From NCBI RefSeq assembly GCF_045037415.1, contig NZ_CP173440.1: a stretch of DNA of 64,000 nucleotides. The stretch is one strand, 5' to 3'. The DNA comes from Escherichia coli. Lineage in GTDB: Bacteria > Pseudomonadota > Gammaproteobacteria > Enterobacterales > Enterobacteriaceae. Below, in pieces: positions 4,646-29,893 of the stretch (positions are counted from its first letter, which is position 1; each line of letters opens with the position of its first letter). The translations under genes and the position numbers were made by a program. Under the pieces are notes generated by a model. That model did not search any database, was not told where the DNA came from, and was given only the letters and a program-made list of their open reading frames with translations.

Positions 4646-5851
4646 ATGACGAATAACCCTACCGATGACAGCAGACCATGGTCGGTCTTTCTTATTTTTC
4701 TGCGGCTTGGATTGACATCTTTTGGCGGCCCCATTGCGCACTTGGGCTACTTCCGCGCCGAATTTGTCACACGGCGGCGCTGGCTCTCCGAACGGAGCTA
4801 TGCTGACTTGGTCGCGCTTTGTCAGTTCTTGCCAGGGCCTGCAAGCAGCCAGGTCGGCATAGCGGTAGGACTGTCTCGGGCTGGATACAGCGGGGCGCTG
4901 GCTGCTTGGGCTGGCTTCACGCTGCCGTCTGCCATAGCCTTGATCCTTTTTGCGCTCGGCATCTCCAGCTATGGCGATTACGTCTCGCAGGGCGCGTTGC
5001 ATGGCTTAAAAGTGGTGGCTGTGGCCGTGGTCGCTCAAGCAGTATGGGGCATGGCGCGTAACCTATGCACGGATGGGCTGCGAGTCACCATCATGGCAAT
5101 TGCTACCTGCGTCGTTTTACTTGTGCCGTCCGCGTGGGGACAGGTTGGCGTGATTGCTATCGCAGGCATCGCAGGCCGGTTATTGTTCAAGCCAGCGAAA
5201 GTTGTTGAGCATGACCCCCTACCTATCACGGTCAGTCACCGGGCCGGCGTGCTTTGGCTCTCGCTGTTCTTTGTCTTGCTGATTGGCCTGCCGGTGTTGG
5301 CCGAACTGATGCCAAGTCAAACCATGGCAATGGTGGATTCCTTCTATCGTGTCGGATCACTGGTGTTCGGCGGTGGTCACGTTGTGCTGCCATTACTGCA
5401 AGCCGAAGTGGTGCCCTCCGGCTGGGTCAACAATGAATCCTTTCTCGCGGGGTACGGGGCAGCTCAAGCGGTGCCCGGCCCTTTGTTCACGTTCGCCGCG
5501 TTTCTTGGTGCCTCGATGAACACCGCCCCGTCGGGCTGGATCGGCGGCATTGTGTGTCTGCTGGCTATCTTCGCGCCCTCGTTCTTGCTGGTCGTCGGAT
5601 CAATGCCATTTTGGGAGCGTTTGCGCCGCAATACAGGCATCCAAGCTGCGCTGGCCGGGATCAATGCCGCTGTAGTCGGCTTGCTGCTGGCCGCGCTGTA
5701 TCAGCCTGTATGGACTAGCGCCATCTTTCAGCCGCAAGACTTCGGCTTGGCATTAGTTGCCCTTGTCGCACTTATGTTCTGGAAGCTCCCGCCGTGGCTG
5801 GTTGTCCTCGGTAGCGGTGCAGCTGGGTGGCTGTTGAGCGTCGCTCTGTGA
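4646..5851 (+). CDS. chrA: Chromate ion transporter ChrA
   Basis: 401-aa polytopic membrane protein MTNNPTDDSRPWSVFLIFLRLGLTSFGGPIAHLGYFRAEF... Confidence 0.9.
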   Translation: MTNNPTDDSRPWSVFLIFLRLGLTSFGGPIAHLGYFRAEFVTRRRWLSERSYADLVALCQFLPGPASSQVGIAVGLSRAGYSGALAAWAGFTLPSAIALILFALGISSYGDYVSQGALHGLKVVAVAVVAQAVWGMARNLCTDGLRVTIMAIATCVVLLVPSAWGQVGVIAIAGIAGRLLFKPAKVVEHDPLPITVSHRAGVLWLSLFFVLLIGLPVLAELMPSQTMAMVDSFYRVGSLVFGGGHVVLPLLQAEVVPSGWVNNESFLAGYGAAQAVPGPLFTFAAFLGASMNTAPSGWIGGIVCLLAIFAPSFLLVVGSMPFWERLRRNTGIQAALAGINAAVVGLLLAALYQPVWTSAIFQPQDFGLALVALVALMFWKLPPWLVVLGSGAAGWLLSVAL

Positions 5852-15491: not shown

Positions 15492-16304
15492 TCAGCGCAG
15501 CTTGTCGGCCATGCGGGCCGTATGAGTGATTGCGGCGCGGCTATCGGGGGCGGAATGGCTCATCACGATCATGCTGGCCTTGGGGAACGCCGCACCAAAC
15601 GCGCGCGCTGACGCGGCGTAGTGCTCAGTGTCGGCATCACCGAGATTGCCGAGCGACTTGGCCTTGCTGTCCTTGATCAGGCAGCCACCAAAAGCGATGT
15701 CGGTGCCGTCGATCCCAACGGTGATATTGTCACTGGTGTGGCCGGGGCCGGGGTAAAATACCTTGAGCGGGCCAAAGTTGGGCGCGGTTGCTGGTTCGAC
15801 CCAGCCATTGGCGGCGAAAGTCAGGCTGTGTTGCGCCGCAACCATCCCCTCTTGCGGGGCAAGCTGGTTCGACAACGCATTGGCATAAGTCGCAATCCCC
15901 GCCGCATGCAGCGCGTCCATACCGCCCATCTTGTCCTGATGCGCGTGAGTCACCACCGCCAGCGCGACCGGCAGGTTGATCTCCTGCTTGATCCAGTTGA
16001 GGATCTGGGCGGTCTGGTCATCGGTCCAGGCGGTATCGACCACCAGCACGCGGCCGCCATCCCTGACGATCAAACCGTTGGAAGCGACTGCCCCGAAACC
16101 CGGCATGTCGAGATAGGAAGTGTGCTGCCAGACATTCGGTGCGAGCTGGCGGAAAACCAGATCGCCAAACCGTTGGTCGCCAGTTTCCATTTGCTGGCCA
16201 ATCGTCGGGCGGATTTCACCGGGCATGCACCCGCTCAGCATCAATGCAGCGGCTAATGCGGTGCTCAGCTTCGCGACCGGGTGCATAATATTGGGCAATT
16301 CCAT
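15492..16304 (-). CDS. blaNDM-1: New Delhi metallo-beta-lactamase NDM-1 (carbapenemase)
   Basis: [64 protein letters not shown]...MADKLR; diagnostic residues P28, V88, D95, D130, E152, M154, A233 are the NDM-1 states. The ORF-track entry carries one extra Met. Confidence 0.97.
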
Positions 16305-16379
16305 CAAGTTTTCCTTTTATTCAGCATTAAAAACCCCGCAAATGCGAGGCCTAGTAAATAGATGATCTTAATTTGGTTC

Positions 16380-16408
16380 ACTGTAGCAAAAATATGGGGC
16401 GAATTCAA
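16380..16408 (-). promoter_or_regulatory. blaNDM promoter: -35 TTGAAT (16403-16408) in the ISAba125 end, 17-bp spacer, -10 TACAGT (16380-16385)
   Basis: Hexamers read on the minus strand ~76-104 bp upstream of the blaNDM start. Confidence 0.65.
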
Positions 16409-16494
16409 ACATGAGGTGCGACAGTTTCAAAAGCCATATGATAATCAACAAGCTGAGCAAATTTCTCTAATGGTGTAAGCCAATCTAACGCCTT

Positions 16495-17630
16495 TCTAAA
16501 TAACTGATCCTAATACCGCTACACTTTAGCCAGCCCGTGTTTTCCACCGGGGAATGGGCTGACGGTATCCATAAAGTGATGAACCTTTTTCAACAGATGC
16601 CACATTGAACGGCACTGGTGATTTCGGGTTATTGTCTCATGAAGCGCCTGCCACAACCGTTCGACATGATTGACCCATGGCGAGTAAACCGGCTGATAAA
16701 TGACCCTGAACTTCTGGTTTGCTTTCAGCCAGCGCAACGTTTCACGACTTTTGTGGATAATGTAGTTATCGACAATGAGCGTAATCGTTTTTGCCCGCCG
16801 GTATGTCGCCTTAAGATGTTTTAACAGTCTGATAAATAAACATGAACCTTTACTGTTTCCACCTACGTAGCTGACTTTTCCCGTACCGCTGTGCAGCGCA
16901 CCGGCAAGATAGTACTTTTCATTCTGGCCCGGTGTGACAACACGTTTTTGCTGCCCGCGTAACTGCCAGTCAGCACCGATTTTCGGGTTGAGATGAATAT
17001 CCACTTCATCTTCGTAAAACACGGGATTTTCCGCACTGCATTTCGCCAGTGCTTCATGGATAGCAACCATTTTTTCTTCTTTGTGTGGGTCACGGATACG
17101 CAGTGTCGGCGCTGCTCTGCGCCATACCAGCCCGGCTGCAGGTAACCATCTCCGGATGGTTGAGGCATGTAGCGGACAACCGGTGACATCACGGATTTTT
17201 ATCGCCAGCAGTTCGGTACTCCAGCGGGAACGCTGATAACCGAAATCGCCGGGAGAATGCTTCACAAGCTCACGCAGCAATGCGCAAATATGTTCGAACG
17301 GCCAGCGCCTGCCACGTCCTGACGGTAATGACTTCAGGCCTTCAGCACCAGACAGAGTGAACCAGTTAATCCAGCGACCAATCGATGAGCGTGCACAGCA
17401 GAGTGTTCTGGCCACATGACTGACGCGCTCGCCCCGGTGCAACATCAGCATGGCGGTCAGTCTGCGGGCATAATTTTTATCGCGTGTTTTATGGATAGCT
17501 TTCTGCATCAGGCGTCGTTCGTCACGAGGTATTGGTGCTATGATCGACATCGCTCAGTCCGTTTGGTGATTTGTTTTGATTTGGCGATTGATCAGATCGC
17601 ACAATTCGGGCTGAGTTCCCTCAAAGTGAT
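16495..17630 (-). mobile_element. IS630-family element (ISEc33/IS630-like) inserted in ISAba125; ends approximate
   Basis: Contains a complete 343-aa IS630-type transposase; ISAba125 sequence resumes on both sides. Confidence 0.45.
16519..17550 (-). CDS. IS630-family transposase
   Basis: 343-aa product MSIIAPIPRDERRLMQKAIHKTRDKNYARRLTAMLMLHRGERVSHVARTL... Confidence 0.85.
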   Translation of the reverse strand: MSIIAPIPRDERRLMQKAIHKTRDKNYARRLTAMLMLHRGERVSHVARTLCCARSSIGRWINWFTLSGAEGLKSLPSGRGRRWPFEHICALLRELVKHSPGDFGYQRSRWSTELLAIKIRDVTGCPLHASTIRRWLPAAGLVWRRAAPTLRIRDPHKEEKMVAIHEALAKCSAENPVFYEDEVDIHLNPKIGADWQLRGQQKRVVTPGQNEKYYLAGALHSGTGKVSYVGGNSKGSCLFIRLLKHLKATYRRAKTITLIVDNYIIHKSRETLRWLKANQKFRVIYQPVYSPWVNHVERLWQALHETITRNHQCRSMWHLLKKVHHFMDTVSPFPGGKHGLAKV

Positions 17631-17646
17631 CTACTATTCTGCACAG

Positions 17647-18585
17647 CTATTTAGGACGAGTATTCAGTGACATGGCAACTTGATTTAAATAATGCTGATC
17701 TGCCTGATTTAAATCAATCCCTTTAGGTAAATATTGCCTAATTAAACCATTCATATTTTCGCATGTGCCTTTTTGCCAGGGTGAATGTGGGTCACAGAAA
17801 TATACATCTATGCCTAAATCTTCTTCGAGTATTTTATGTTCTGACATCTCACGTCCACGGTCATAGGTCAACGTTTTACGCAGTTCTGCAGGTAAATATT
17901 TCAGAGCTTCAGTTAAAGCCTTGCGCACTGATTCTGCCTTTGCATCAGGTAATGTTGCCAAGATACAGAGCCGTGTATTTCGTTCAATAAGTGTTGCTAT
18001 CGAACTTTTATTGTCTTTACCTTTAATTAAATCAGCTTCCCAATGACCCGGTATTTTTCTTTCTTGAACTTCGGCTGGGCGCTCATGAATAGTTTTAATA
18101 TCCTGTAATATAGAATCTTTTTTAGGTTCACCGTTAGCTTTTCGCTTTTTATTTTCATGACGTAGACAGGATAATAAGTCTTTTTTCAACTCACCCTTTG
18201 GTAATGCTCGTATCGTTGAATAAATCGTTGTATGGCTTACATTCATTGTTTGATCCAAATCAGGAAATGTCTTTAAACGCTTTGCTATTTGCTGAGGAGA
18301 CCATAAACAACGGATCGCTTCAACAATAAATTTCCAGAGGATTGAATCGATTTTGAGTTTTCTGTGACCACGTCTACGTCTAGCGAAGGTGTTATCAGAA
18401 GCATATCGAGCTTGATAAACGTCATTGATGCTATTTCTTTTAAGCTCACGATAGATCGTACTAGGATGTCTTTTAATGAGTTCAGCAAATTTTCTGGCTG
18501 AAAAGCCTTCTTTTCTTGACTCAAGCATTAATGCAGTACGATCTTCAAAGTTAAGATGATGGTATGACAATTTTATATACTCCAT
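17647..18585 (-). CDS. ISAba125 (IS30-family) transposase
   Basis: 312-aa product MEYIKLSYHHLNFEDRTALMLESRKEGFSARKFAELIKRHPSTIYREL... Confidence 0.85.
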   Translation of the reverse strand: MEYIKLSYHHLNFEDRTALMLESRKEGFSARKFAELIKRHPSTIYRELKRNSINDVYQARYASDNTFARRRRGHRKLKIDSILWKFIVEAIRCLWSPQQIAKRLKTFPDLDQTMNVSHTTIYSTIRALPKGELKKDLLSCLRHENKKRKANGEPKKDSILQDIKTIHERPAEVQERKIPGHWEADLIKGKDNKSSIATLIERNTRLCILATLPDAKAESVRKALTEALKYLPAELRKTLTYDRGREMSEHKILEEDLGIDVYFCDPHSPWQKGTCENMNGLIRQYLPKGIDLNQADQHYLNQVAMSLNTRPK

Positions 18586-18736
18586 AAACCCTTTAAATTA
18601 ATTAGGTGGTTTATGTCGCACTTCAAGTTTTACTCTGCCAACTTTAAATCAGTGGCTCCACTAACACTCTTCACTTATTTATTTAAAATTTAGCGACGTT
18701 AAAAGACAATTAAGTATTTTTAGATAATGCTTAGAA

Positions 18737-19516
18737 TCAATTCAATTCATCAAGTTTTAAAAAATAATTCCTTTTGTCAGGTCTATCATTTTTTAAATGC
18801 TTTAAAAATATTTTAGCAGTTTCCTCCGAGGCATCCTCTCTTAGGCAACGTTCAACAAAGGATATATCTACAAATTCATCAGCTAACCCAGCACGGCCAA
18901 GATCTAAAAAGTAAATTTCATTGAATTTATCTATAAAAATATTACTATCCGTGATATCGCCATGAGAAAAAACCAATCTTTCTTCAACACGAGTCTCAGT
19001 TAACTCATTCCATAGACTTAGGTAAGTTCTATGGTCTCCCCATAATTCAGCGTCAAAATCATCTTGATCTATATCGTCAAGGAGTTGGTTATCAATAAAA
19101 AATTTTGACTCTTTTAACCGATGATCAATGTTTGAAATAAATGGACAATCAATAATAGCAACTGAATTTAACAGATTGAGTGCCTCCTTATAGATAGCAA
19201 GCAATTCTTGGTCTGTTAAAAAAAGCGCTGAAATTGGTTTTGCATTGATCGCTTTAGTGATCATTAATTCAAACTGCTCATCCTGAAAAGTCATGATGAG
19301 TTCAGGCACCTTTAATTTCTCAGAGAGCCAACTCAACATTTTCGCTTCGCGAGAGACACTGTATGTGGTCTCTGTATATAAAGTGCTAGATCGCTTAAGA
19401 AAAAAAGTTTCATTATTTCGATTAAAAGAATAAACATCCGATGGCGACTGACCAATTTTATTTGGCTCTAAAACGCTGTTTCCAATAAATTGTTGAATAA
19501 TATTGGGCAATTCCAT
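18737..19516 (-). CDS. aph(3')-VI: Aminoglycoside 3'-phosphotransferase APH(3')-VI (amikacin/kanamycin resistance, aphA6)
   Basis: MELPNIIQQFIGNSVLEPNKIGQSPSDVYSFNRNNETFFLKRSSTLY...; shares its first six codons with blaNDM-1. Confidence 0.93.
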   Translation of the reverse strand: MELPNIIQQFIGNSVLEPNKIGQSPSDVYSFNRNNETFFLKRSSTLYTETTYSVSREAKMLSWLSEKLKVPELIMTFQDEQFELMITKAINAKPISALFLTDQELLAIYKEALNLLNSVAIIDCPFISNIDHRLKESKFFIDNQLLDDIDQDDFDAELWGDHRTYLSLWNELTETRVEERLVFSHGDITDSNIFIDKFNEIYFLDLGRAGLADEFVDISFVERCLREDASEETAKIFLKHLKNDRPDKRNYFLKLDELN

Positions 19517-19621
19517 CAAGTTTTCCTTTTATTCAGCATTAAAAACCCCGCAAATGCGAGAGAGGTGGTCCCACTTGTTTGAACAACTAAAAGCGTATTT
19601 ATAAGTGATATTCCGCTCTAG

Positions 19622-19864
19622 TTAAGCCACCTTGTTTTGTTGGGGTAGCTGATCATAGTAAAACTCATTTGGTGTCATTTTGTCTAGACTCGAATGAGGT
19701 CGTTTCAAATTATAAAACTCAAAATATGCACTTAATTGCTTTTTCGCATCTGTGACACTGCTATAAGCTTTGAGATACACCTCTTCATATTTAGGAGAGC
19801 ATGAAAAACCTCGGGGCAGCCATCGAATGATGCCATCTACAGGGGTTAAAATAACCACCATCAT
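19622..19864 (-). pseudogene. C-terminal fragment of an IS3-family transposase (ISAba14-like remnant)
   Basis: 80-aa ORF ending ...YFEFYNLKRPHSSLDKMTPNEFYYDQL, typical of an IS3 OrfB C-terminus; family assignment from context. Confidence 0.5.
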
Positions 19865-19886
19865 TTCATAACAATACCTGCTGACT

Positions 19887-20477
19887 ATGAAGATCTACGT
19901 CATCAAAATAGCAGTTCATGGAGTCAGTCCGATGGTCTGGCGTCGGCTGAGAATTGCTGCCGACACGTCACTGGCCGCGCTTCACTTCATTTTCCAGATA
20001 GTGCAGGGCTGGGGGGACGACCATCTCCATCAATTTCACATTTATGGCAAAGATTACGGTATCTCCTACGAAGGAGGCATCGGTTTTGTCGATAATCCGT
20101 TCCGGGTCGTGATTGATGATTTTGCTTTTGATGCTGGCGATCGCTTTACCTATGAATACAATTTCTTTGAGCACTGGCTTCATGACATTCGTGTTGAGGC
20201 CATTTATGAAAACTCTACGCTGAAAGCGCCGTTTTGTATAAGCGGCCATGGTATGCCCGGAGCCACAGCTGCGGATGAGTTCGATAAAACCCTGGCGTTT
20301 CTTGAAGCTATCGTTAATGCGGATGATGAAACAACGGTCGGCGAGATCCGCCCTTTTGCTGACGACCTGGATGCTGTCAGGTTCAACCGCCACAAAATCA
20401 ACCGGCAACTGAGCAGGCTCGACCTTGCATCTCCGGTACTGGAGCCTGAAGTTATCTGGCTGGGCCGTCGTCGCTGA
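19887..20477 (+). CDS. Hypothetical protein (pRiA4b ORF-3-like family), first ORF of the ISKpn19-like element
   Basis: 196-aa product MKIYVIKIAVHGVSPMVWRRLRIAADTSLAALHFIFQIVQGW... Confidence 0.45.
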   Translation: MKIYVIKIAVHGVSPMVWRRLRIAADTSLAALHFIFQIVQGWGDDHLHQFHIYGKDYGISYEGGIGFVDNPFRVVIDDFAFDAGDRFTYEYNFFEHWLHDIRVEAIYENSTLKAPFCISGHGMPGATAADEFDKTLAFLEAIVNADDETTVGEIRPFADDLDAVRFNRHKINRQLSRLDLASPVLEPEVIWLGRRR

Positions 20478-20613
20478 CTGATGTCTATAAAGGTATACGT
20501 TTTCAGCATGCCTCTCAGATCCCCGAAAAAATGTCTATAAACCTCCCTAAATCAGTGTTTATGGATTATTCTTTAAATCTCTATGATGTTTAAAGACCTT
20601 CCGGAGGTTTTGC

Positions 20614-21186
20614 GTGCAATATGCCTACATCAGGGTAAGCTCGGCCGATCAGAATACGGCCCGTCAGGAAGAGGCATTGTCAAAGGCGGGTTTTCAGCCT
20701 GATAAAATTTGTGTTGAGCATGCCAGCGCGAAGGACACAAACCGCCCGGGGTTACAGGAACTCCTGGGGCAATTACGCCCTGGTGATACGCTTCTGGTTC
20801 ATTCCATCGATCGCCTTTGCCGGAATATGTCGGATATGTGCGCTGTCACCACCCGGCTTCGTGACCAGGGCGTTACCCTTATTTTTCTGAAAGAGCAGCT
20901 GACGTTCAGCGCCGGCACAAACAATCCGATGCAGGAACTGCAGCTGCACATGATGTCGGCATTCAGCCAGTTTGAACGAGCCTTACTGAAGGAAAGGCAG
21001 GCCGACGGCATCGCCGCGAAAAAAGCACGGGGTGAAAAAACAGGGCGCCCCGGCGCCGATATCAAAAAGATCCAGGAAATTGACGCACTCAGAAGCAGAG
21101 GGGTCAGGCTCAGGATCGCCTGCGACCATGCGGGCCTTGGCGTTTCCACATATTATAAGCTTCGTCACCAGATGAACAACCAGTAG
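20614..21186 (+). CDS. Small serine recombinase (resolvase/invertase family) encoded inside the ISKpn19-like element
   Basis: N-terminal YIRVSSADQ serine-recombinase motif and C-terminal HTH. Confidence 0.6.
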   Translation: MQYAYIRVSSADQNTARQEEALSKAGFQPDKICVEHASAKDTNRPGLQELLGQLRPGDTLLVHSIDRLCRNMSDMCAVTTRLRDQGVTLIFLKEQLTFSAGTNNPMQELQLHMMSAFSQFERALLKERQADGIAAKKARGEKTGRPGADIKKIQEIDALRSRGVRLRIACDHAGLGVSTYYKLRHQMNNQ

Positions 21187-21219
21187 CCGGGAGATAGTCA
21201 TCCACCACAGCAGGAGGCA

Positions 21220-22614
21220 ATGATGCAACTGACGCTCCAGATAGTCATCACCGATGAATCAGGCTCCAGTCGAACGGAGGAACTGATGACAATCCAGAAA
21301 TCAGGGGAAACCCGGAACGACATCGGATTATCGGTGTCAGAATCCAAGCTGTTGCTGAATACGGTCCAGCAGTCGGTGGTCCAGCTGCAGGCAGACGAAT
21401 ATACTCAACACCATATCCGGTGCCCTCACTGCCTTGCTGCGCGCAGAATCAAAGGCAAACAGAAAATACGGTACCGGACGCTGTTTGGCGTTATTCCGGT
21501 ATCCGGGCTTCGGGTGTACCGGTGCCGTTGTGAAGAGAGTGATACAAAGACAGTCAGTTTGCTCAGCGACTGGGCCGGCGATTATTCTCACCCGGCACTG
21601 AAATATATTGAAACCCGCTGGGCCTCGATGATCTCCTATGAAATGACGACTCGTCTGCTGAAAGATATTCTGCCGGTGGGCCACAGCCTGAATGCCTCAA
21701 CGGTGAGGAATCATTTATGCCAGGTGGCGCAGCGTCTTGACGCTGAGGCTGAAGCTCATTCAGGTTTTCTTTCCGGCTGCCCCCGCGACTGGGGGAACCT
21801 GCCCAGGCCAGGAAAACCGCTTGTGGTGGGTATAGATGGTGGTTATGTTCGCGATCGGGATGACAAAAAGCGTAATTTTGAAATTATTGCCGGGAAGTCT
21901 TTTTCCGTTGGTGCGCCTGCTGACACCCGCCGCTTCGGTTTTGTTCAGAAGGATGACTGTCATCCGGAACGCAGGCTCATGACCCACCTTTCAGCGCAGG
22001 GAATGCAGGCCAACCAGCAGATATTTTTTCTGTCCGACGGCGCGGATAATCTCAGGGACCTCCAGTTCGGTATGTACCCTGAGTCAACGCATGTGCTGGA
22101 CTGGTTTCATATCACCATGAGGCTGAAGGTGCTCATGCAATATGCCCGGGGACTGCTGGTATCAGATCCAGAGGCGGGGAGTAAAGTTCTGGCACTGCTG
22201 GAAAGCATTAAACGATATCTCTGGCATGGCAATGTTGTCGCTGCGCTGGAACATATTGATAATTGCGTTATGTATTGCGATGACCCTGAACTCAGCTATC
22301 CTAGCCTGAAATCCCTGCAAAAACATCTGGATGAAATGTATACCTACATCCGGAATAATAAGATGATGATCCCAAACTACGGCGAAATGCGTCGGTACGG
22401 AGAGCCGGTATCAACCGCGTTTGTGGAATCCACGATCAATGAAGTGATCGCCAGACGAATGGCCAAAAAGCAGCAGATGCAGTGGAGCAGAAAAGGGGCT
22501 CATTATTTGTTACAGACCCGGACCGCCGTTTTGAATAACGAACTGCAGGATAAATTTGTCTGCTGGTATCCGGGTTTTCAAAGTGACGGGAAGGGACCAG
22601 CGATGGCAGCATAG
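21220..22614 (+). CDS. ISKra4-family transposase (ISKpn19-like)
   Basis: 464-aa product; assignment from recalled family features and the ISKpn19-tnpR fragment-qnrS1 context. Confidence 0.7.
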   Translation: MMQLTLQIVITDESGSSRTEELMTIQKSGETRNDIGLSVSESKLLLNTVQQSVVQLQADEYTQHHIRCPHCLAARRIKGKQKIRYRTLFGVIPVSGLRVYRCRCEESDTKTVSLLSDWAGDYSHPALKYIETRWASMISYEMTTRLLKDILPVGHSLNASTVRNHLCQVAQRLDAEAEAHSGFLSGCPRDWGNLPRPGKPLVVGIDGGYVRDRDDKKRNFEIIAGKSFSVGAPADTRRFGFVQKDDCHPERRLMTHLSAQGMQANQQIFFLSDGADNLRDLQFGMYPESTHVLDWFHITMRLKVLMQYARGLLVSDPEAGSKVLALLESIKRYLWHGNVVAALEHIDNCVMYCDDPELSYPSLKSLQKHLDEMYTYIRNNKMMIPNYGEMRRYGEPVSTAFVESTINEVIARRMAKKQQMQWSRKGAHYLLQTRTAVLNNELQDKFVCWYPGFQSDGKGPAMAA

Positions 22615-22616
22615 CT

Positions 22617-23075
22617 CACGCTGCCCCAATATTTTTTATGCTCTCGGTCGTATGGAAGCTGGACCGCCTCGGTCGTGATCTTCGTCATCTCATTAATACA
22701 GTGCACGACCTGACCGCGAGGGGGACCGGTCTGAAAGTGCTGACCGGTCACGGGGCGACTATCGACACAACAACGGCCGCTGGCAAGCTTGTCTTCGGTA
22801 TCTTTGCCGCACTGGCGGAGTTTGAGCGCGAACTGATTGCTGAAAGAACGACTGCAGGTCTGGCATCAGCAAGAGCCCGTGGGCGGAACGGCGGCCGACC
22901 TTATAAAATGACGCCAGTCAAACTGCGACTGGCAATGGCATCAATGGGACAATCAGAAACAAAGGTCAGTACGCTATGCCAGGAACTTGGGATAACCCGG
23001 CAAACTTTGTACAGGCATATTTCCCCTGTTGGTCAACTGCGGGCGGACGGGATCAAGCTGCTCAACCGTGGATAA
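22617..23075 (+). pseudogene. tnpR: Tn3-family resolvase TnpR, 5'-truncated (lacks the catalytic Ser region)
   Basis: Product starts at ...KLDRLGRDLRHLINTVHDL, about residue 60 of resolvases. Confidence 0.7.
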
Positions 23076-23393
23076 TTTGAACGGACGGAAAAATCTGGGG
23101 TTCCGGCGTAGTACCCCTATCACCTCCACATTTTTGCAACAGTGCCTTATAAATGGCAGCCTTATGTTTACTTGCCAAGATGGGCTACCATATGATGTTT
23201 TATACTGAGCAATATTAATATTATCTTTAATGGAAAAATTAAGCCCACTAAGTGACCCACTGCTATATGGCTCTATTGTGAAGACGCCTGAGGGTAAAAA
23301 TTTATACATGGTTGTCCCTATGTCTATTATTGCAAGGTTGACAATATTATTCGTTTTATAAATTTGAGCGTTTAAAATCACACATCAAAGCAA

Positions 23394-24050
23394 TTAGTCA
23401 GGATAAACAACAATACCCAGTGCTTCGAGAATCAGTTCTTGCTGCCAGGCTGCAATTTTGATACCTGATGTATCGACTTTGCGGGGATCTAAACCGTCGA
23501 GTTCGGCGTGGCATAAATTGGCACCCTGTAGGCTAAATTGCCCCCAGACATCTTCGGAAAAAACACCTCGACTTAAGTCTGACTCTTTCAGTGATGCACC
23601 CGCTAGGTTCGTTCCTATCCAGCGATTTTCAAACAACTCACATTTTTCTAAACAAACCCTCTCCATATTGGCATAGGAAAGATTACATCCAGAAATAAAT
23701 GCTGAGCAAAAGTACATACGATTACTCACTTGATGGGCAAAGTTTGTTCGGGAAAAGTTGGCACCTTTTAAATCACACGCACGGAACTCTATACCGTAGC
23801 AATTGGCATTACTGAAGTTTGCCATCGCAAGTTGGCATTGTTGGAAACTTGCATCACGAAGATCTGCGACATCAAAGTGGCAGCCTTCGATATCACCCTG
23901 TTCAATGAACTTGCAGTTGACGAATGTCGTATCACGCAAGTTAGCACGTCGAAAGTCGCTGCGAATGAATGTGCAAGCGGTGAAGGTGAGATCACTTAAG
24001 TCTTTATGTGAAAAGTTGTGGTGCCGATATGTATGATTGTAGGTTTCCAT
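23394..24050 (-). CDS. qnrS1: Quinolone-resistance pentapeptide-repeat protein QnrS1
   Basis: 218-aa product METYNHTYRHHNFSHKDLSDLTFTACTFIRSDFRRANLRDTTFVNCKF... Confidence 0.95.
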   Translation of the reverse strand: METYNHTYRHHNFSHKDLSDLTFTACTFIRSDFRRANLRDTTFVNCKFIEQGDIEGCHFDVADLRDASFQQCQLAMANFSNANCYGIEFRACDLKGANFSRTNFAHQVSNRMYFCSAFISGCNLSYANMERVCLEKCELFENRWIGTNLAGASLKESDLSRGVFSEDVWGQFSLQGANLCHAELDGLDPRKVDTSGIKIAAWQQELILEALGIVVYPD

Positions 24051-24417
24051 GAGTACTCCTTGTTGAAAGGAGGGCTAGACTACCATTATACATATGCCAA
24101 GACATTAAAATAAAAGCCTGTTACATCAACACATTACAACCCCTCAATTTACCTGTTTTAAGTGGTCAAATTGGCGCGTAGAGCGCCTATCGCTCTTGCA
24201 TTGGCACGCGGCCCTGTTGAAAAAAGTTATTCGCTTTAGATAGGGTTAGGAGAGCCGTGCTTCGCCGGTAAAAAATCGGACTATCCGACGCAGGGCGGAC
24301 TCATCGGCGGAGAAGCAAACTTTGACTATATCTCCCTACACTTGGAAGAGGGCTAGACTGGCCCCATAGATCACCAGACACTTCGACTCTCTTAAAATAA
24401 GAGGTAGTCTTGGAACT

Positions 24418-24813
24418 ATGTTTAATACCAGTCAGAACGATAAGATGGTTGAAGTGTTATCAGGACCTGAGCGGCGTCGGCGTCGTACACCGCAGGAAAA
24501 AATTGCCATTATTCAGCAGACTATGGAGCCCGGTATGACCGTGTCTCATGTCGCGCGCCTGCATGGCATCAATGCAAACCAGATATTCAAATGGCGCAAG
24601 CAATATTAAGACGGTTCACTGACGGCTGTTGCATCGGGCGAGGAAGTGGTGCCGGCCTCCGAACTCGCTGCCGCCAATAAGCAAATTCGCGAACTCCAGC
24701 GCCTTCTGGGCAAAAAGACGATGGAAGCCGAGATACTCAAAGAGGCCGTGGAGTTCGGCCGGGCAAAAAAATGGATTGCGCATGCGCCCTCGTTGCCTGG
24801 GAACGACGAATAA
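24418..24813 (+). pseudogene. orfA of an IS2-group (IS3-family) element with an in-frame TAA at 24607-24609
   Basis: Frame reads ...QIFKWRKQY[64 protein letters not shown], colinear with IS2 OrfA. Confidence 0.6.
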
Positions 24814-25469
24814 GCGACGTTTGCAGAAGTCTTGGCGTGTCGCGTGCGCAGTTGAGCATTCGGGTTCACCGGCCATCTGACTGACAGGATCGCAGACGGC
24901 AGCCCCGTTCTGACGATACCACCGTATTGTCCCGGATAAACATGGCGGTGGCTGACCTGCCGACGTATGGTTATCGCCGTGTGTGGGCGCTGCTGCGACG
25001 GGAGTCGGAGCGGGACGGCCTGCCTGTGGTTAATGCAAAGCGGGTGTATCGCATTATGAGAACGCATAATCTGCTTCTTGAACGTAAACCCGCTGATCCT
25101 TGCCGTAAGCGGGCCCATAAGGGGCGCGTAGCAGTAGCGGAAAGTAACCGGCGCTGGTGCTCAGATGGCTTTGAGTTCCGCTGTGATAATGGCGAAAAGC
25201 TGCGGGTGACCTTCGCGCAGGACTGCTGCGACAGGGAGATCATTGACTGGGCAGCGAGCACCGGAGGCTATGACAAAGAAACGGTGCAGGATGTCATGCT
25301 GGGTGCGGTGGAAAAACGCTTCGGAAGGCAGTTGCCAACAGTGCCGGCGTTCGCCCGGTTGCTGGGACTGGAGCCTTGTACGACAGCAGTGCGAAGCCCG
25401 GAAAGCAATGGCATAGCAGAAAGCTTCGTGATGACGATAAAACGGGACTACATCAGCATCAGGATTTTA
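24800..25469 (+). pseudogene. orfB of the IS2-group element, internally deleted and 3'-truncated where the Tn3 IR begins
   Basis: ORF-track product 24927-25478 matches IS2 InsD in blocks ([36 protein letters not shown]) with a gap and a premature end. Confidence 0.55.
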
Positions 25470-25507
25470 GGGGTCTGACGCTCAGTGGAACGAAAACTCA
25501 CGTTAAG
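25470..25507. repeat. Tn3-type 38-bp terminal inverted repeat (GGGGTCTGACGCTCAGTGGAACGAAAACTCACGTTAAG)
   Basis: Read directly; overlaps the tnpA stop as in Tn3/Tn2. Confidence 0.85.
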
Positions 25508-27709
25508 CAACGTTTTCTGCCTCTGACGCCTCTTTTAATGGTCTCAGATGTCCTTTGGTCACCAGTTCTGCCAGCGTGAAGGAATAATGGCCGAGCATAT
25601 TGATATGTCCGTGGCAAAGCGGGGAGAGGCGTGCGATATCTTCATCATTCAGTGTTTCACCCTGCGCCCGGAGATGATCCAGGGCTGCCTGCATATAAAT
25701 AGTGTTCCATAACACGACGGCGTTAGTGACCAGCCCCAGTGTGCCCAGTTGATCTTCCTGACCGTCGGTATATCGTTTTCTTATCTCACCTTTTTGACCG
25801 TGACAGATGGCTCTGGCAACGGCATGGCGACTTTCTCCCCGATTAAGCTGGGTCAGAATGCGCCGGCGGTAATCTTCATCATCAATATAATTAAGCAGAT
25901 ACAGCGTTTTGTTGATGCGCCCCACTTCAATGATTGCCTGAGTCAGTCCGGAAGGACGTTCACTTTTCAGCAATGAACGGACCAGCACTGAAACCTGTAC
26001 TTTGCCCAGCTTCAGGGAGCCAGCGGTCCGGATCATTTCGTCCCACTGAAGGACTATTTTTCGGGGATCTGATTGCCCTCTGGCAATATCATTCAGCACG
26101 CCATAGTCGGCATCATGGTCCATTCGCCAGAAAACCGAAGCACCGGCATCAGCCAGGCGTGGAGAAAACTGGTATCCCAGCAGCCAGAAAAGGCCAAAGA
26201 CAAGTTCGCTGGCACCTGCTGTATCGGTCATAATTTCGGTTGGATTCAGCCCGGTTCCTGTTCCAGAAGACCTTCCAGCACAAAGATAGAGTCCCTCAGC
26301 GTCCCCGGTATAACGATGCCATGAAAGCCGGAATACTGATCGGACACAAAGTTGTACCAGGTGATCCCTCTGTTATTACCAAAGTATTTGCGGTTCGGTC
26401 CGGCATTGATTGTTCTGACTGGCGTAACAAAGCGCATTCCATCTGCAGATGCCACTTCTCCTCCACCCCATATCTGTGCCAGTGGCAGCGTTGCCTGAAA
26501 ATCAACCAGTCTGGCATTAGCGCTGGTGATAGTTTCAGCCCGCAGATAGTTCGCTTTTGTCCAGTTCAGCCGGTGTCGGGTCAGTGCAGGAACATTTGAT
26601 CTGATCAGTGGTTCCAGACCGATATTGCAGGCTTCAGCCATCAGCACGGCGCTGATGCTGACGGGCAGATCATCAACTCTGGCACTGGCTTCACTAGCAT
26701 GGAAAAACTCATCAGCAAATCCGGTATGGGCGTTAATTTCGAGCAGCAACTCCGTTAAATCCACCGGAGGGAGTAGATCACTGATCATTTTGCTCAGTCG
26801 TTTCAGACTGTCCGGCTCATCAAGACTGGCGAGGGGAGAAATTGTCAACCGGGGCTTCGGGCCAGAAACATCGAGTTCGACAGCCTCATTTTCGCAAAGA
26901 CGTGCAGCAACCTGTCTGTAACGACTATCAAGCTGATGACCCAGAGATTTTATTGCTTCCTGCGGGTCTGTCGGGTGCCCCAAAGAACGATAAACCTTAA
27001 TCCGGTTTGCCTGCCAGTCAGCACCCTGTAGTAATCTTGCACGAGGATCTCCCCACCGGTTACTGCCGGTAACGTAGACATCCCTCCGCCTCAGACTATC
27101 CTGCAGTTTACTGAGAAAGCAGAGCGTGTATCCCCTGCGGGTGATATGTTTTTCCTTGTTAATCACCAGCCGTTTCCATGACCGACTGATAATTTCCGTT
27201 GGTGCGTCGTCAAAAAACTGCCGCCGTGAGCTGAACTCCCGGCTGAGGTAGTCACAGGCATTCAGAGTGGTAACCCCGGCAGGTGCGGATGAAAATTTAA
27301 CGGTATTCAGCAGATGGGGCAGGAAACGACGAACGCGCCCGTACTGCTCCACCATTTCTTCATGAAAATTATCGTCTGAGGGCCGGGCAATTTCACGGAC
27401 AAGCGTGATGATTTCAGCCAGCTTTTGCCTTGGGATGTAGCTGAACACCTCAGCACGAATCGATTCGTCCGGTGTTTCTTCTTTCAGCAGGTACGAACAT
27501 GCGCTGGCGAGCGCCAATGCAGATTTATCCAGATCCTTCAGCGAGCGGAGCCGTTTTTTCTGCCCAATCTTTCTGGCGTCACGGATGATAACGGCCAGCA
27601 TGGCGTCCAGAACGTCCAATGCATCATCCAGCGCCAGCGTTTCCCATGCAAGGACAAAGGCAACCAGAACCGCCATCCTTTTCTGCGGTGACATCCTGGC
27701 AATATTGAA
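25503..27709 (-). pseudogene. tnpA: Tn3/Tn2-type transposase tnpA, 5'-truncated by IS26 (first ~280 codons missing) with a frameshift near 26231-26246
   Basis: ORF-track products 26246-27694 and 25503-26231 are colinear with TnpA but in different frames; the reading frame runs up to the IS26 boundary. Confidence 0.85.
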
Positions 27710-28529
27710 GGCACTGTTGCAAAGTTAGCGATGAGGCAGCCTTTTGTCTTATTCAAAGGCCTTACATTTCAAAAACTCTGCTTACCAGGCGCATTTCGCC
27801 CAGGGGATCACCATAATAAAATGCTGAGGCCTGGCCTTTGCGTAGTGCACGCATCACCTCAATACCTTTGATGGTGGCGTAAGCCGTCTTCATGGATTTA
27901 AATCCCAGCGTGGCGTTGATTATCCGTTTCAGTTTGCCATGATCGCATTCAATCACGTTGTTCCGGTACTTAATCTGTCGGTGTTCAACGTCAGACGGGC
28001 ACCGGCCTTCGCGTTTGAGCAGAGCAAGCGCGCGACCATAGGCGGGCGCTTTATCCGTGTTGATGAATCGCGGGATCTGCCACTTCTTCACGTTGTTGAG
28101 GATTTTACCCAGAAACCGGTATGCAGCTTTGCTGTTACGACGGGAGGAGAGATAAAAATCGACAGTGCGGCCCCGGCTGTCGACGGCCAGGTACAGATAC
28201 GCCCAGCGGCCATTGACCTTCACGTAGGTTTCATCCATGTGCCACGGGCAAAGATCGGAAGGGTTACGCCAGTACCAGCGCAGCCGTTTTTCCATTTCAG
28301 GCGCATAACGCTGAACCCAGCGGTAAATCGTGGAGTGATCGACATTCACTCCGCGTTCAGCCAGCATCTCCTGCAGCTCACGGTAACTGATGCCGTATTT
28401 GCAGTACCAGCGTACGGCCCACAGAATGATGTCACGCTGAAAATGCCGGCCTTTGAATGGGTTCATGTGCAGCTCCATCAGCAAAAGGGGATGATAAGTT
28501 TATCACCACCGACTATTTGCAACAGTGCC
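27710..28529 (-). mobile_element. IS26 copy 3, variant encoding Tnp26 with G184N and R93L
   Basis: 820 bp with IRs; nucleotide differences from the other copies are cag vs ccg at ~28189 and tt vs cc at ~27916-27917. Confidence 0.95.
27762..28484 (-). CDS. tnp26: IS26-variant transposase (G184N, R93L in the 234-aa numbering)
   Basis: Product has AYLYLAVDS and KRIINATLGF where the other four copies have AYLYRAVDS and [10 protein letters not shown]. Confidence 0.9.
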   Translation of the reverse strand: MLMELHMNPFKGRHFQRDIILWAVRWYCKYGISYRELQEMLAERGVNVDHSTIYRWVQRYAPEMEKRLRWYWRNPSDLCPWHMDETYVKVNGRWAYLYLAVDSRGRTVDFYLSSRRNSKAAYRFLGKILNNVKKWQIPRFINTDKAPAYGRALALLKREGRCPSDVEHRQIKYRNNVIECDHGKLKRIINATLGFKSMKTAYATIKGIEVMRALRKGQASAFYYGDPLGEMRLVSRVFEM

Positions 28530-29284
28530 GTGTACATCGAAATACGGCTTATCAGGCGTTAAAAGATGCTTGCGATGACTTGTTTGCAAGACAATTCAGT
28601 TATCAGAGTCTTAGTGAAAAAGGTAACACTATTAATCACAAATCAAGATGGGTGAGCGAGGTGGCTTATATTGATAATGAAGCTGTCGTTAGACTTATTT
28701 TTGCCCCTGCTATTGTGCCTTTAATTACTAGGTTAGAAGAACAATTTACAAAGTATGAAATACAACAAATAAGTAATTTAACAAGTGCTTATGCTGTTCG
28801 TTTATATGAAATATTGATTGCATGGCGTAGTACTGGAAAAACGCCTCTCATAACTATGTATGATTTTAGACAAAAAATAGGTGTACTCGAGACTGAATAC
28901 AAACGAATGTATGATTTTAAAAAATATGTTTTAGACATTGCATTAAAACAAGTAAATGAACATACCGATATTATTGTCAAAGTTGAACAGCATAAAACAG
29001 GTAGATCTATTACTGGTTTTTCATTTAGCTTTAAACAGAAAAAATCAGCCACGCATTCAGTCGAATCTAAAAGAGATCCGAATACATTAGACCTCTTTTC
29101 AAAAATAACAGATAAACAACGCCATCTATTCGCCAACAAGCTCTCAGAGCTTCCTGAGATGAGTAAATATTCACAAGGCACAGAAAGCTATCAGCAGTTT
29201 GCTGTACGTATAGCTGCCATGCTGCAAGATGCAGAGAAATTTAAGGAATTACTTCCTTTACTCAGAAAATTAGGATTTCAATGA
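28530..29284 (+). pseudogene. Rep_3-family plasmid replication initiator, 5'-truncated by IS26 (Acinetobacter-type, as in Tn1548)
   Basis: C-terminal region ...LYEILIAWRSTGKTPLITMYDFRQKIGVLETEYKRMYDFKKYVLDIALKQVNEH...; low GC. Confidence 0.6.
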
Positions 29285-29350
29285 CATTGTTAATTGAAAT
29301 TGTTAAGTTAACAGTCAGGTATTAACACAAGTTGAAAACTGGTTTACATA

Positions 29351-29893
29351 ATGAAAAAACTGTCAGTTTCAGAGTTAGCTAAGCTTTATGGATATTCAAG
29401 ACAAGCCATATATGCACATATAAACAAAGGAAATTTATCTAAAGGATCTGATGGATTAATTGACTTTTCAGAGGCCCTAAGAGTTTTTGGGGAACCACAA
29501 AAAAAAGAGGATACAGTCAATCAAAGTCAATCAATTAACAGTCAAAACTTGACAGAAGTTGACTTACTAAAACGTCAAGTTGACATACTGGAAAAACAAT
29601 TAAATCAGGCAATACAGAGAGAAAATCAATCTTTAGAACGTGAATCGTTTTATCAAGAACAGATTGAAGCTATGCAGCGCTTACTAGAAGCACCAAAAGC
29701 CAATATGACTACCTTTACCGATCAGAGCTTTAAACAGGATATAGCAACGGATCCTCGGTCGGAACTAGCAACGAACTATGACGAATTGACTACTCCTCAG
29801 CAAGACAATAAGCGTATTCCTATCCCGGAGCATGTTGAACCAGAACAGAAGAAGAGAGGCTTCCTAAGCCGCTTTTTCCTTCCATATGGTTAG
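29351..29893 (+). CDS. Hypothetical HTH DNA-binding protein downstream of the rep fragment
   Basis: 180-aa product with N-terminal HTH-like segment (LSVSELAKLYGYSRQAIYAHINKG) and a coiled-coil middle. Confidence 0.45.
   Translation: MKKLSVSELAKLYGYSRQAIYAHINKGNLSKGSDGLIDFSEALRVFGEPQKKEDTVNQSQSINSQNLTEVDLLKRQVDILEKQLNQAIQRENQSLERESFYQEQIEAMQRLLEAPKANMTTFTDQSFKQDIATDPRSELATNYDELTTPQQDNKRIPIPEHVEPEQKKRGFLSRFFLPYG

What the first reader, a model, noticed from the sequence alone, without database searches (positions are those of the whole stretch)
19881..22616. ISKra4-type element with a serine recombinase and a pRiA4b ORF-3-like accessory gene
Besides the 464-aa transposase, the element region encodes a 196-aa protein of unknown function and a 190-aa serine recombinase. 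An IS carrying its own resolvase-like gene is unusual and could be a cointegrate-resolution or inversion function travelling with the IS; alternatively the two ORFs belong to a separate fragment.
Basis: inference. Interest (0 to 1): 0.35.

Follow-up and report, generated by a model that had tools for sequence, protein, structure and literature searches.

The report
ISKpn19: known three-gene insertion sequence
This is an ordinary, intact copy of ISKpn19, a well-catalogued mobile element of resistance plasmids that is already known to carry a resolvase-type recombinase gene and a gene of unknown function inside its ends as well as its transposase.

Summary
The three ORFs are real: pRiA4b-ORF3-like (196 aa), serine recombinase (190 aa) and ISKra4-family transposase (463/464 aa). 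They all lie inside one mobile unit, window 19795-22645. It is 2,851 bp long with 26-nt imperfect terminal inverted repeats.

This is ISKpn19. Its length, terminal sequences and gene content match the published entry (Guerillot 2014, Table S1: "pRiA4b_ORF-3, S Recomb"). That paper already suggested cointegrate resolution.

The alternative that the two ORFs are a separate fragment is refuted:
- 14 other fetched copies are 2,851 bp and sit in many different contexts.
- Three copies have 9-bp target duplications; for two of them an uninterrupted empty site exists in other plasmids.
- Relatives with only 55% and 43% transposase identity keep the same gene order.

New here, from sequence only:
- A res-like cluster of TCTATAAA dyads lies upstream of the recombinase gene (20484-20596).
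- All three genes are under strong purifying selection.
- Left and right arms of close relatives have reassorted, with the junction in that cluster.

These points favour a working res/resolvase system.

Seen in passing: all six insertions that keep a duplication sit exactly at the outer edge of a Tn3-family terminal repeat.

Verdict: already known, low interest.

The parts
19795..22645 (+). Complete ISKpn19 (2,851 bp)
   Evidence: Bounded by inverted-repeat pair I2. Homology in other plasmids starts at query 195/196 and ends at 3046. 14 other fetched copies are 2,851 bp: 13 compared base by base differ by at most 2 mismatches, and a 14th, L104 copy B, is delimited by its terminal repeats. Length and terminal 41-mers are identical to the published entry.
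19795..19820 (+). Left terminal inverted repeat, GAGAGCATGAAAAACCTCGGGGCAGC
   Evidence: Identical to the reverse complement of the end sequence listed for ISKpn19 in Guerillot 2014 Table S1. The GAGAGC...GGGGCA termini are conserved in relatives.
19887..20477 (+). pRiA4b ORF-3-like gene (196 aa; RefSeq also annotates a 181-aa form from an internal start)
   Evidence: Pfam PF07929 at 110.7 bits. PDB 2i1s at E 2.4e-12. dN/dS 0.065-0.10 against close relatives. A homologue lies upstream on the same strand in 70 of 80 surveyed loci.
20484..20596 (.). Candidate res site. Block A 20484-20502 (TCTATAAAGGTATAC...); dyad B 20534-20565 (TCTATAAA-N16-TTTATGGA); dyad C 20570-20596 (TCTTTAAA-N11-TTTAAAGA)
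   Evidence: 5 of the 6 matches to TCTATAAA (up to 1 mismatch) in the whole IS lie in the 136-bp spacer (the motif was chosen post hoc). The blocks are conserved in relatives down to 55% transposase identity. Divergence change-points against L016 (~20484) and L023 (~20555) fall here. The function is inferred.
20614..21186 (+). Small serine recombinase (190 aa, GTG start)
   Evidence: PF00239 at 136.1 bits. Aligns over residues 3-183 with Gin invertase 4m6f (E 2.7e-24) and with Tn3, gamma-delta and Sin resolvases; the YIRVSSADQ motif aligns with Gin YVRVSTNDQ. dN/dS 0.04-0.09.
21220..22614 (+). ISKra4-family (p-MULT 4, ISAzba1 group) DDE-type transposase
   Evidence: NF033572 at 380.7 bits against a cut-off of 205. 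100% identical to the cluster named 'ISKra4-like element ISKpn19 family transposase' (P0001). Group assignment comes from Guerillot 2014 Table S1.
22620..22645 (+). Right terminal inverted repeat, GCTGCCCCAATATTTTTTATGCTCTC
   Evidence: identical to the published end.
19600..19794 (-). Left flank (context, not part of the IS): 3' remnant of ISAba14 (IS3 family), cut by the IS left end
   Evidence: 100% match to annotated ISAba14 transposase genes ending at query 194-196 (H33-H37). NF033516 IS3 C-terminal match.
22638..23075 (+). Right flank (context): N-terminally truncated Tn3-type resolvase gene next to qnrS1. It is a different gene from the IS recombinase
   Evidence: PF00239 match covers profile positions 68-144 only. 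Only 30% identical to the IS recombinase. The same junction GGTCGTATGG occurs in L009, L017, L018, L021 and L022. The platform is described in PMC5034289.

Best explanation
SHOWN: window 19795-22645 is an intact copy of ISKpn19 (ISKra4 family, ISAzba1 group). It is a 2,851-bp unit with 26-nt imperfect inverted repeats. All three genes (pRiA4b-ORF3-like, serine recombinase, transposase) lie inside the ends and transpose together, making a 9-bp target duplication. The copy in this window has no duplication: its left end abuts an ISAba14 remnant and its right end abuts the widespread truncated-tnpR/qnrS1 module. INFERRED: the recombinase is a working resolvase. It acts on a res-like cluster of TCTATAAA dyads just upstream of its own gene (20484-20596), recombining two directly repeated copies of the element. 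That would resolve cointegrates or element and plasmid dimers, and would probably also repress its own promoter, as in Tn3. The same reaction between related elements in one cell explains the observed swapping of left and right arms. It may also explain why most copies have unmatched flanks. INFERRED MORE WEAKLY: the pRiA4b-ORF3-like protein is a conserved partner of this transposase clade, acting as a regulator or a target or DNA-binding helper, rather than as cargo.
For: IDENTITY AND UNITY
- The inverted repeats coincide with the homology break-points in plasmid records.
- 13 other copies are 2,851 bp with at most 2 mismatches, and they show at least 9 different left junctions.
- The length of 2,851 bp is stated in PMC6498974.
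- The end sequences, the 26/22 inverted repeat and the content 'pRiA4b_ORF-3, S Recomb' are in Guerillot 2014 Table S1.
- Three copies carry 9-bp duplications: TTGGGTTAG in pB379_2, with a 219/219 empty site in NZ_CP058829.1; AGGAAATAG in NZ_CP100988.1, with 231/231 empty sites in at least 10 plasmids; CATATAGGC in pIMP-DS1516 copy B.
- A 2,770-bp Providencia relative (55% transposase identity) has the same gene order in 4 contexts and 9-bp duplications in two of them. A Pseudoruegeria relative (43%) also has one.

FUNCTION
- The recombinase is full length, and its catalytic-serine motif aligns with Gin and the resolvases.
- dN/dS is 0.04-0.16 for all three genes.
- Recombinase and transposase identities co-vary across 16 elements (r = 0.96). 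In the gamma-proteobacterial clade the three-gene order appears ancestral, with degraded recombinase remnants in some Xenorhabdus copies.
- The dyad cluster is conserved upstream of the recombinase gene. The alpha-proteobacterial clade has a different repeat (TGTCC/GGACA) in the same place.
- The right arms of ISKpn19, L016 and L023 are 94-95% alike, but their left arms are only 80-88% alike in all three pairs. The change-points fall at ~20484 and ~20555 (log-likelihood ratios 49.5 and 17.6). Synonymous divergence differs in the same way (dS 0.74 against 0.16).
- Guerillot 2014 proposed the same role.
Against: - No experiment on ISKpn19 transposition or on its recombinase turned up in the searchable literature.
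- From general knowledge, other Mutator-type bacterial elements (IS256, TnGBS) move through circular copy-out intermediates. These do not obligatorily make cointegrates.
- About two thirds of surveyed relatives have no recombinase, and some lineages have lost it, so it is dispensable for transposition.
- The TCTATAAA motif was defined from the same region in which its enrichment was then counted.
- Only two clean dyads are visible in ISKpn19. The third block is a half-site plus a conserved GGTATAC, and no crossover dinucleotide can be assigned.
- The closest solved homologue by sequence is an invertase (Gin), not a resolvase.
- The arm-exchange junctions coincide with a gene boundary and carry an uncertainty of tens of bases, so homologous recombination cannot be excluded.
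- Two complete copies coexist on pIMP-DS1516, but they are inverted, so this says nothing either way.
Confidence: 0.6

Rival explanations
1. The res/recombinase pair works mainly as a plasmid multimer-resolution (stability) module. The IS would confer it on whatever plasmid it enters, so it benefits the carrier plasmid rather than completing the element's own transposition.
For: In complete E. coli genomes 789 of 838 places are on plasmids. A preprint also reports ISKra4-family elements as predominantly plasmid-borne. The chemistry is the same as cointegrate resolution, so the res-like site, the selection and the arm exchange fit equally well. Relatives without a recombinase still spread.
Against: Three-gene relatives also sit in large scaffolds that are probably chromosomal: Morganella 2.9 Mb and Pantoea 5.2 Mb (L024, L025). 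Many host plasmids already carry their own resolution systems, for example the recombinase genes on the IncX3 and IncN backbones. The recombinase has co-diverged with the transposase over long distances, which points to a role tied to the element.
Confidence: 0.2
2. The recombinase acts mainly as a DNA-binding repressor at the dyads, controlling the recombinase-transposase operon. Recombination would be a relic or a minor activity.
For: The dyads lie directly upstream of the recombinase gene, which ends 33 bp before the transposase gene. From general knowledge, Tn3 and gamma-delta resolvases are also repressors.
Against: The catalytic-serine motif and the whole catalytic domain are kept under strong purifying selection. 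A pure repressor would not need them. Arm reassortment with junctions at the dyads points to strand exchange there.
Confidence: 0.1
3. The two accessory ORFs are inert cargo, or a separate fragment trapped next to the transposase. They would have no role for the element.
For: The window copy has no target duplication and sits in a heavily rearranged mosaic. The published table records no direct repeats for ISKpn19.
Against: Both genes are inside the inverted repeats. The whole unit has inserted with 9-bp duplications into sites known empty elsewhere. The order is conserved at 55% and 43% transposase identity. dN/dS is at most 0.10 for both genes. A pRiA4b-ORF3-like gene is present in 70 of 80 relatives.
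Confidence: 0.04
4. The recombinase is a DNA invertase that flips a segment of the element or of neighbouring DNA.
For: The best solved-structure match by sequence is Gin invertase (E 2.7e-24, against 1.8e-16 for Tn3 resolvase). NCBIfam's weak best partial matches include an invertase family, far below its cut-off.
Against: All half-site matches cluster in one 113-bp stretch, and there is no second, inverted site elsewhere in the IS. The 13 copies compared base by base are all collinear with the window copy. Megablast found whole-length collinear matches in hundreds of records.
Confidence: 0.03

Closest known systems
ISKpn19 (ISfinder; Guerillot et al. 2014, Table S1; ISKra4 family, ISAzba1 group)
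   Same: Everything tested is the same: 2,851 bp; identical terminal 41-mers; a 26-nt inverted repeat with 22 matches; a 463-aa transposase; passenger genes 'pRiA4b_ORF-3, S Recomb'. Identity to annotated copies is at least 99.9%.
   Different: Nothing of substance differs. The published table lists no direct repeats. Three other copies with 9-bp duplications were found here, two of them with empty sites. The window copy itself has none.
Other ISAzba1-group transposons carrying pRiA4b-ORF3-like genes with or without a site-specific recombinase (e.g. ISAfe13, ISAra2; Guerillot 2014)
   Same: Same transposase clade and the same GAGAG... termini. A pRiA4b-ORF3-like gene lies upstream of the transposase, and some members have a serine recombinase between the two.
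   Different: Different hosts and sequences. Most relatives surveyed here (about 48 of 80) lack the recombinase and are about 2.1-2.3 kb rather than about 2.8-2.9 kb.
Tn3-family res/resolvase cointegrate-resolution module
   Same: A small serine recombinase with a cluster of dyad sites directly upstream of its gene. Related elements exchange arms at that site. The proposed role is resolving direct repeats of the element.
   Different: This is not a Tn3-family element. The transposase is ISKra4/Mutator type, not the Tn3 type. The ends are 26 nt starting GAGAGC, not 38 nt starting GGGG. The duplication is 9 bp, not 5 bp. Replicative transposition has not been demonstrated for this family.
IS1096 of Mycobacterium smegmatis and its 'TnpR' passenger
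   Same: RefSeq names pRiA4b-ORF3-family proteins 'IS1096 element passenger TnpR family protein' (H76). The same protein family therefore rides on an unrelated insertion sequence.
   Different: From memory, IS1096 belongs to a different IS family and has no serine recombinase. The 'TnpR' name there is historical and does not indicate a resolvase fold. None of this was tested here.

Membership tests
ISKpn19 (specific insertion sequence) | Length of 2,851 bp, with the published terminal sequences | tested here: met
   Window 19795-22645 is 2,851 bp. The length is stated in PMC6498974. Both 41-nt end sequences in Guerillot 2014 Table S1 are identical to the window ends (one search compared).
ISKpn19 (specific insertion sequence) | Gene content: pRiA4b-ORF3-like gene, serine recombinase and 463-aa transposase | tested here: met
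   Table S1 lists 'pRiA4b_ORF-3, S Recomb' and 463 aa. RefSeq annotation of identical copies agrees.
ISKra4 family (p-MULT 4 Mutator-like transposases) | Transposase matches the family model above its curated cut-off | tested here: met
   NF033572 at 380.7 bits, cut-off 205.
ISKra4 family (p-MULT 4 Mutator-like transposases) | DDE catalytic triad | tested here: inconclusive
   Invariant acidic residues (for example D205, D272, D293, E388, E402) are present in a 15-sequence alignment. They were not mapped onto a defined triad.
ISKra4 family (p-MULT 4 Mutator-like transposases) | Terminal inverted repeats and a target duplication on insertion | tested here: met
   Inverted repeats. 9-bp duplications with empty sites in other copies. 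The window copy itself has none.
Small serine recombinases (resolvase/invertase) | N-terminal catalytic domain with the nucleophilic serine | tested here: met
   PF00239 at 136.1 bits. YIRVSSADQ aligns with Gin YVRVSTNDQ.
Small serine recombinases (resolvase/invertase) | C-terminal helix-turn-helix DNA-binding domain | tested here: inconclusive
   The alignment with Gin runs to residue 183 of 190, covering Gin's C-terminal domain. No Pfam helix-turn-helix model reached E 0.01.
res/resolvase resolution system (as in Tn3, Tn21, Sin) | A res site with several recombinase-binding dyads next to the recombinase gene | tested here: inconclusive
   Two dyads (32 bp and 27 bp) and one conserved half-site block lie at 20484-20596 and are conserved in relatives. 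Binding and the crossover point are unknown.
res/resolvase resolution system (as in Tn3, Tn21, Sin) | Recombination between res sites, seen as arm exchange between related elements | tested here: met
   Divergence change-points at ~20484 and ~20555. Left arms are 80-88% alike and right arms 94-95% alike in all three pairs. Homologous recombination is not excluded.
res/resolvase resolution system (as in Tn3, Tn21, Sin) | The element forms cointegrates that need resolution | not testable with these tools
   This needs a mating-out or transposition assay. No such data turned up in the literature searches.
Tn3 family transposons | Tn3-type transposase, about 38-bp ends starting GGGG, 5-bp duplication | tested here: not met
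   The transposase has no Pfam match and matches ISKra4 in NCBIfam. The ends are 26 nt starting GAGAGC. The duplication is 9 bp.
Invertase switch (Gin/Hin type) | Two inverted crossover sites flanking an invertible segment | tested here: not met
   There is a single cluster of half-sites, and all compared copies are collinear.
IS607-type serine transposase | Match to the IS607 transposase model | tested here: not met
   NF033518 at 25.7 bits, against a cut-off of 110.

The most novel reading that the evidence does not exclude
The three-gene ISKpn19 clade may be a Mutator-type transposon that has converged on a Tn3-like way of life and specifically homes to Tn3-family transposons. It would insert, with a 9-bp duplication, exactly at the outer edge of their 38-bp terminal repeats, and it carries its own working res/resolvase that also shuffles element arms. 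The near-universal pRiA4b-ORF3-like protein could be the factor that selects this target or controls transposition. No paper found in the literature searches here mentions this homing.
Probability: 0.3. Interest if true: 0.55.

Novelty: already known. Interest (0 to 1): 0.2.

Why it matters
The finding itself adds nothing new. ISKpn19, with these three genes inside its ends, has been catalogued since 2014 and is named in hundreds of resistance-plasmid papers. It is present in 718 of 5,426 complete E. coli genomes.

It matters in practice because ISKpn19 sits beside qnrS1, and in this window close to aph(3')-VI and blaNDM. How it moves and rearranges its flanks therefore shapes resistance regions.

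The secondary observations would be worth a short experimental study, since nothing mechanistic is known for this IS family:
- a candidate internal res site
- arm exchange at that site
- insertion at the outer edge of Tn3-family ends

Tried and rejected
- A metagenome scan for the exact right end of ISKpn19 found nothing, so no extra junctions came from that source.
- The consensus promoter/terminator scan of the element gave no more sites than shuffled sequence and no clear promoter for the recombinase gene.
- NCBIfam has no model matching the pRiA4b-ORF3-like protein. The only solved relative, 2i1s, is a 'hypothetical protein'. The literature search on the family gave only annotation mentions. 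No structure prediction was run because it could not have changed the verdict.
- An automated search for ends and duplications in the 80 genome loci found terminal repeats in about 45 loci but a duplication in only one, L075. Most single genomic copies are therefore uninformative, in line with the 'DR 0' entry in the published table.
- I considered that the G which precedes the left end in every junction lacking a duplication belongs to the IS, which would give an 8-bp duplication and 2,852 bp. I rejected this because pIMP-DS1516 copy B has C there together with a clean 9-bp duplication.
- I considered that the IS recombinase and the flanking truncated tnpR are duplicates. I rejected this because they are only 30% identical.
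- I looked for a second copy or fragment of the IS in the window and found none.
Full report
WHAT IS THERE

The region holds three same-strand ORFs:
- 19887-20477, 196 aa
- 20614-21186, 190 aa, GTG start
- 21220-22614, 464 aa (463 aa as annotated in RefSeq)

They match, respectively:
- Pfam PRiA4_ORF3, 110.7 bits
- Pfam Resolvase, 136.1 bits
- the NCBIfam ISKra4-family transposase model, 380.7 bits against a cut-off of 205

THE ENDS

- A 26-nt inverted repeat, 85% complementary, lies at 19795-19820 and 22620-22645. This bounds 2,851 bp.
- Megablast of 19600-22900 against 72,556 plasmids found 2,839 records. In many of them homology starts at query 195/196 and stops at 3046, which are window 19794/5 and 22645. 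ISAba14 records match only query 1-194/196.
- Thirteen copies fetched from different plasmids and one chromosome are all 2,851 bp, with at most 2 mismatches. They show at least 9 different left junctions. A fourteenth, copy B of pIMP-DS1516, is described below.

The literature agrees:
- PMC6498974 gives ISKpn19 as 2,851 bp.
- Supplementary Table S1 of Guerillot et al. 2014 (PMC3942029) lists ISKpn19 in the ISAzba1 group. It gives exactly these two end sequences, a 26-nt repeat with 22 matches, a 463-aa transposase and passengers 'pRiA4b_ORF-3, S Recomb'.
- The text of that paper says that 12 ISAzba1-group elements share the pRiA4 ORF, that five carry a serine recombinase, and that these recombinases might resolve cointegrates as in Tn3.

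The finding and its favoured interpretation are thus already published.

THE THREE GENES MOVE AS ONE UNIT

- In pB379_2 the element is flanked by TTGGGTTAG on both sides. The reconstructed empty site occurs uninterrupted in NZ_CP058829.1, 219/219.
- In NZ_CP100988.1 it is flanked by AGGAAATAG, with one extra T at the right junction. The empty site is present, 231/231, in at least 10 plasmids.
- Copy B of pIMP-DS1516 has CATATAGGC on both sides.
- A 2,770-bp relative in Providencia has a transposase 55% identical. It has the same gene order in four contexts, the same GAGAGCAT termini, and 9-bp duplications in two of them.
- A Pseudoruegeria relative (43% identical) also has a 9-bp duplication.

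The window copy has no duplication. Its left flank is an ISAba14 remnant. Its right flank is the truncated-tnpR/qnrS1 junction, which is shared by five of the other fetched copies and is described as a widespread platform.

HOW GENERAL THE ARCHITECTURE IS

A scan of one genome per species returned 80 loci with transposases 40-94% identical.
- A pRiA4b-ORF3-like gene lies upstream on the same strand in 70 of them. Nine of the other ten have too little upstream sequence to judge.
- A serine recombinase gene is also present in about 25.
- Elements with the recombinase are about 2.81-2.90 kb. Those without are about 2.12-2.29 kb.
- On a transposase tree, the gamma-proteobacterial clade containing ISKpn19 appears ancestrally three-gene. 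Degraded recombinase remnants remain in some Xenorhabdus copies.
- A Rhodobacterales clade is also three-gene, but its recombinase is only about 27% identical to that of ISKpn19.
- A few loci have the recombinase upstream of the pRiA4-like gene instead.

EVIDENCE ON FUNCTION

- The recombinase aligns along its whole length with Gin, Tn3, gamma-delta and Sin recombinases, including the catalytic-serine motif.
- dN/dS against close relatives is 0.04-0.09 for the recombinase, 0.065-0.10 for the pRiA4-like gene and 0.07-0.16 for the transposase.
- The 136-bp spacer upstream of the recombinase gene holds 5 of the 6 matches to TCTATAAA (up to one mismatch) in the whole element. The motif was chosen after looking at this region.
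- The matches form a 32-bp dyad (20534-20565), a 27-bp dyad (20570-20596) and a conserved block TCTATAAAGGTATAC (20484-20502).
- The same blocks are conserved in relatives down to 55% transposase identity. In Photobacterium both dyads are perfect.
- The Rhodobacterales clade has different repeats (TGTCC/GGACA) in the same position.

Divergence between ISKpn19 and two close relatives jumps inside this region:
- against L016, from 18.3% to 5.3% mismatch at ~20484 (log-likelihood ratio 49.5)
- against L023, from 12.0% to 5.3% at ~20555 (log-likelihood ratio 17.6)

Synonymous divergence behaves the same way. All three pairs among ISKpn19, L016 and L023 have right arms 94-95% alike but left arms only 80-88% alike. 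This requires at least two arm exchanges.

I therefore favour a working res/resolvase system. It would resolve direct repeats of the element, and it would account for arm shuffling and possibly for the many copies with unmatched flanks.

This is inference. No experiment was found. Related Mutator-type elements are known, from general knowledge, to use circular intermediates. Most relatives also do without a recombinase.

RIVAL EXPLANATIONS

- A plasmid-stability role uses the same chemistry and cannot be separated from cointegrate resolution here.
- A purely regulatory role is hard to reconcile with the conserved catalytic domain.
- An invertase role lacks a second site.
- A 'separate fragment' is excluded.

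SEEN IN PASSING

Every one of the six insertions that still has its duplication lies at the outer boundary of a Tn3-family 38-bp terminal repeat (GGGG...ACGYTAAG). Three are ISKpn19, two are the Providencia relative and one is the Pseudoruegeria relative.
- The duplicated 9 bp are 8 bp outside the repeat plus its first base.
- In five cases the transposase end of the IS faces the repeat. In one case the other end does.
- The Tn3-family repeats involved are of different types, including the Tn21 type.
- No paper found in the literature searches here mentions this. The adjacency of ISKpn19 to Tn6901 and to Tn6322 in two reports fits it.

A second point is unexplained. The base before the left end is G in all nine distinct ISKpn19 left junctions that lack a duplication. 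It is not part of the element, because pIMP-DS1516 copy B has C there.

VERDICT

This is a correct reading of a well-known element. Novelty: already known. Interest is low for the finding itself. The res-site and target-site observations are modest leads for anyone studying this IS family.

Noticed in passing
L013 4355-4401; L020 3451-3498; L104 26829-26883; L005 and L007 6414-6460; L075 5411-5457: All six insertions of ISKpn19-clade elements that keep a 9-bp target duplication sit exactly at the outer boundary of a Tn3-family 38-bp terminal repeat (GGGG...ACGYTAAG). The duplication is 8 bp outside the repeat plus its first base. Several repeat types and both IS orientations are involved. This suggests homing to Tn3-family ends, which no paper found in the searches here mentions.
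   Followed up: partly
window 19794; the same position in L009-L012, L015, L017, L019, L022 and L006: The base just before the left inverted repeat is G in all nine distinct ISKpn19 left junctions that lack a duplication, and also in the Providencia L006 junction. The first bases of the right flanks are not constrained in the same way. The G is not part of the IS, because L104 copy B has C there. This is unexplained.
   Followed up: partly
window 20484-20596, compared with L016, L023, L024 and L025: Close relatives are mosaics. The right arms (recombinase plus transposase) of ISKpn19, L016 and L023 are 94-95% alike, but their left arms (left end plus the pRiA4-like gene) are only 80-88% alike. 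The switch falls in the dyad cluster upstream of the recombinase gene.
   Followed up: yes
L023-L102 (80 genome loci): A pRiA4b-ORF3-like gene lies directly upstream of the transposase in 70 of 80 relatives at 40-94% identity, from Proteobacteria to Cyanobacteria. It is often only 0-90 bp from the transposase start. It looks like a core partner of this transposase clade, yet its function is unknown.
   Followed up: partly
L001/L002 about 4790-4980; L026: Some Xenorhabdus copies have lost the recombinase but keep a short remnant of it (63 codons) just before the transposase gene, or have it broken in two. Sister copies (L027, L028) keep it intact. The loss is therefore secondary.
   Followed up: partly
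L046, L066, L068, L070, L075, L079 (spacer upstream of the recombinase gene): The Rhodobacterales/Nitratireductor three-gene clade has a recombinase only about 27% identical to that of ISKpn19. In the equivalent spacer it has different repeats (TGTCC/GGACA dyads, and a TTGAC...TATGAT promoter-like pair). This could be an independent capture of a recombinase, or co-evolution of the recombinase and its site.
   Followed up: partly
L051, L091, L101: Three loci have the serine recombinase gene upstream of the pRiA4-like gene instead of between it and the transposase. It was not determined whether that recombinase lies inside the element ends.
   Followed up: no
L104 (pIMP-DS1516) 19792-22642 and 26875-29725; L011, L014, L103: There are two kinds of ISKpn19/qnrS1 junction. 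In the window, the IS right end cuts the Tn3-type tnpR. In IncN and IncX3 plasmids, the IS left end lies 343 bp upstream of a full-length copy of that recombinase gene. pIMP-DS1516 carries two complete copies in inverted orientation around qnrS1 and IS26.
   Followed up: partly
L079 172-209 and 6715-6752: In Primorskyibacter the three-gene element lies between a pair of inverted Tn3-type 38-bp repeats 6.6 kb apart, together with another resolvase gene. It may sit inside a Tn3-derived unit.
   Followed up: no
window 15492-27694: Resistance mosaic around the IS: blaNDM (15492-16307), IS630-family and IS30-family transposase genes, aph(3')-VI (18737-19519), an ISAba14 remnant, ISKpn19, a truncated tnpR, qnrS (23394-24050), an IS2 fragment and a split Tn3-family transposase gene (25503-27694). 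Family assignments were confirmed with NCBIfam.
   Followed up: partly
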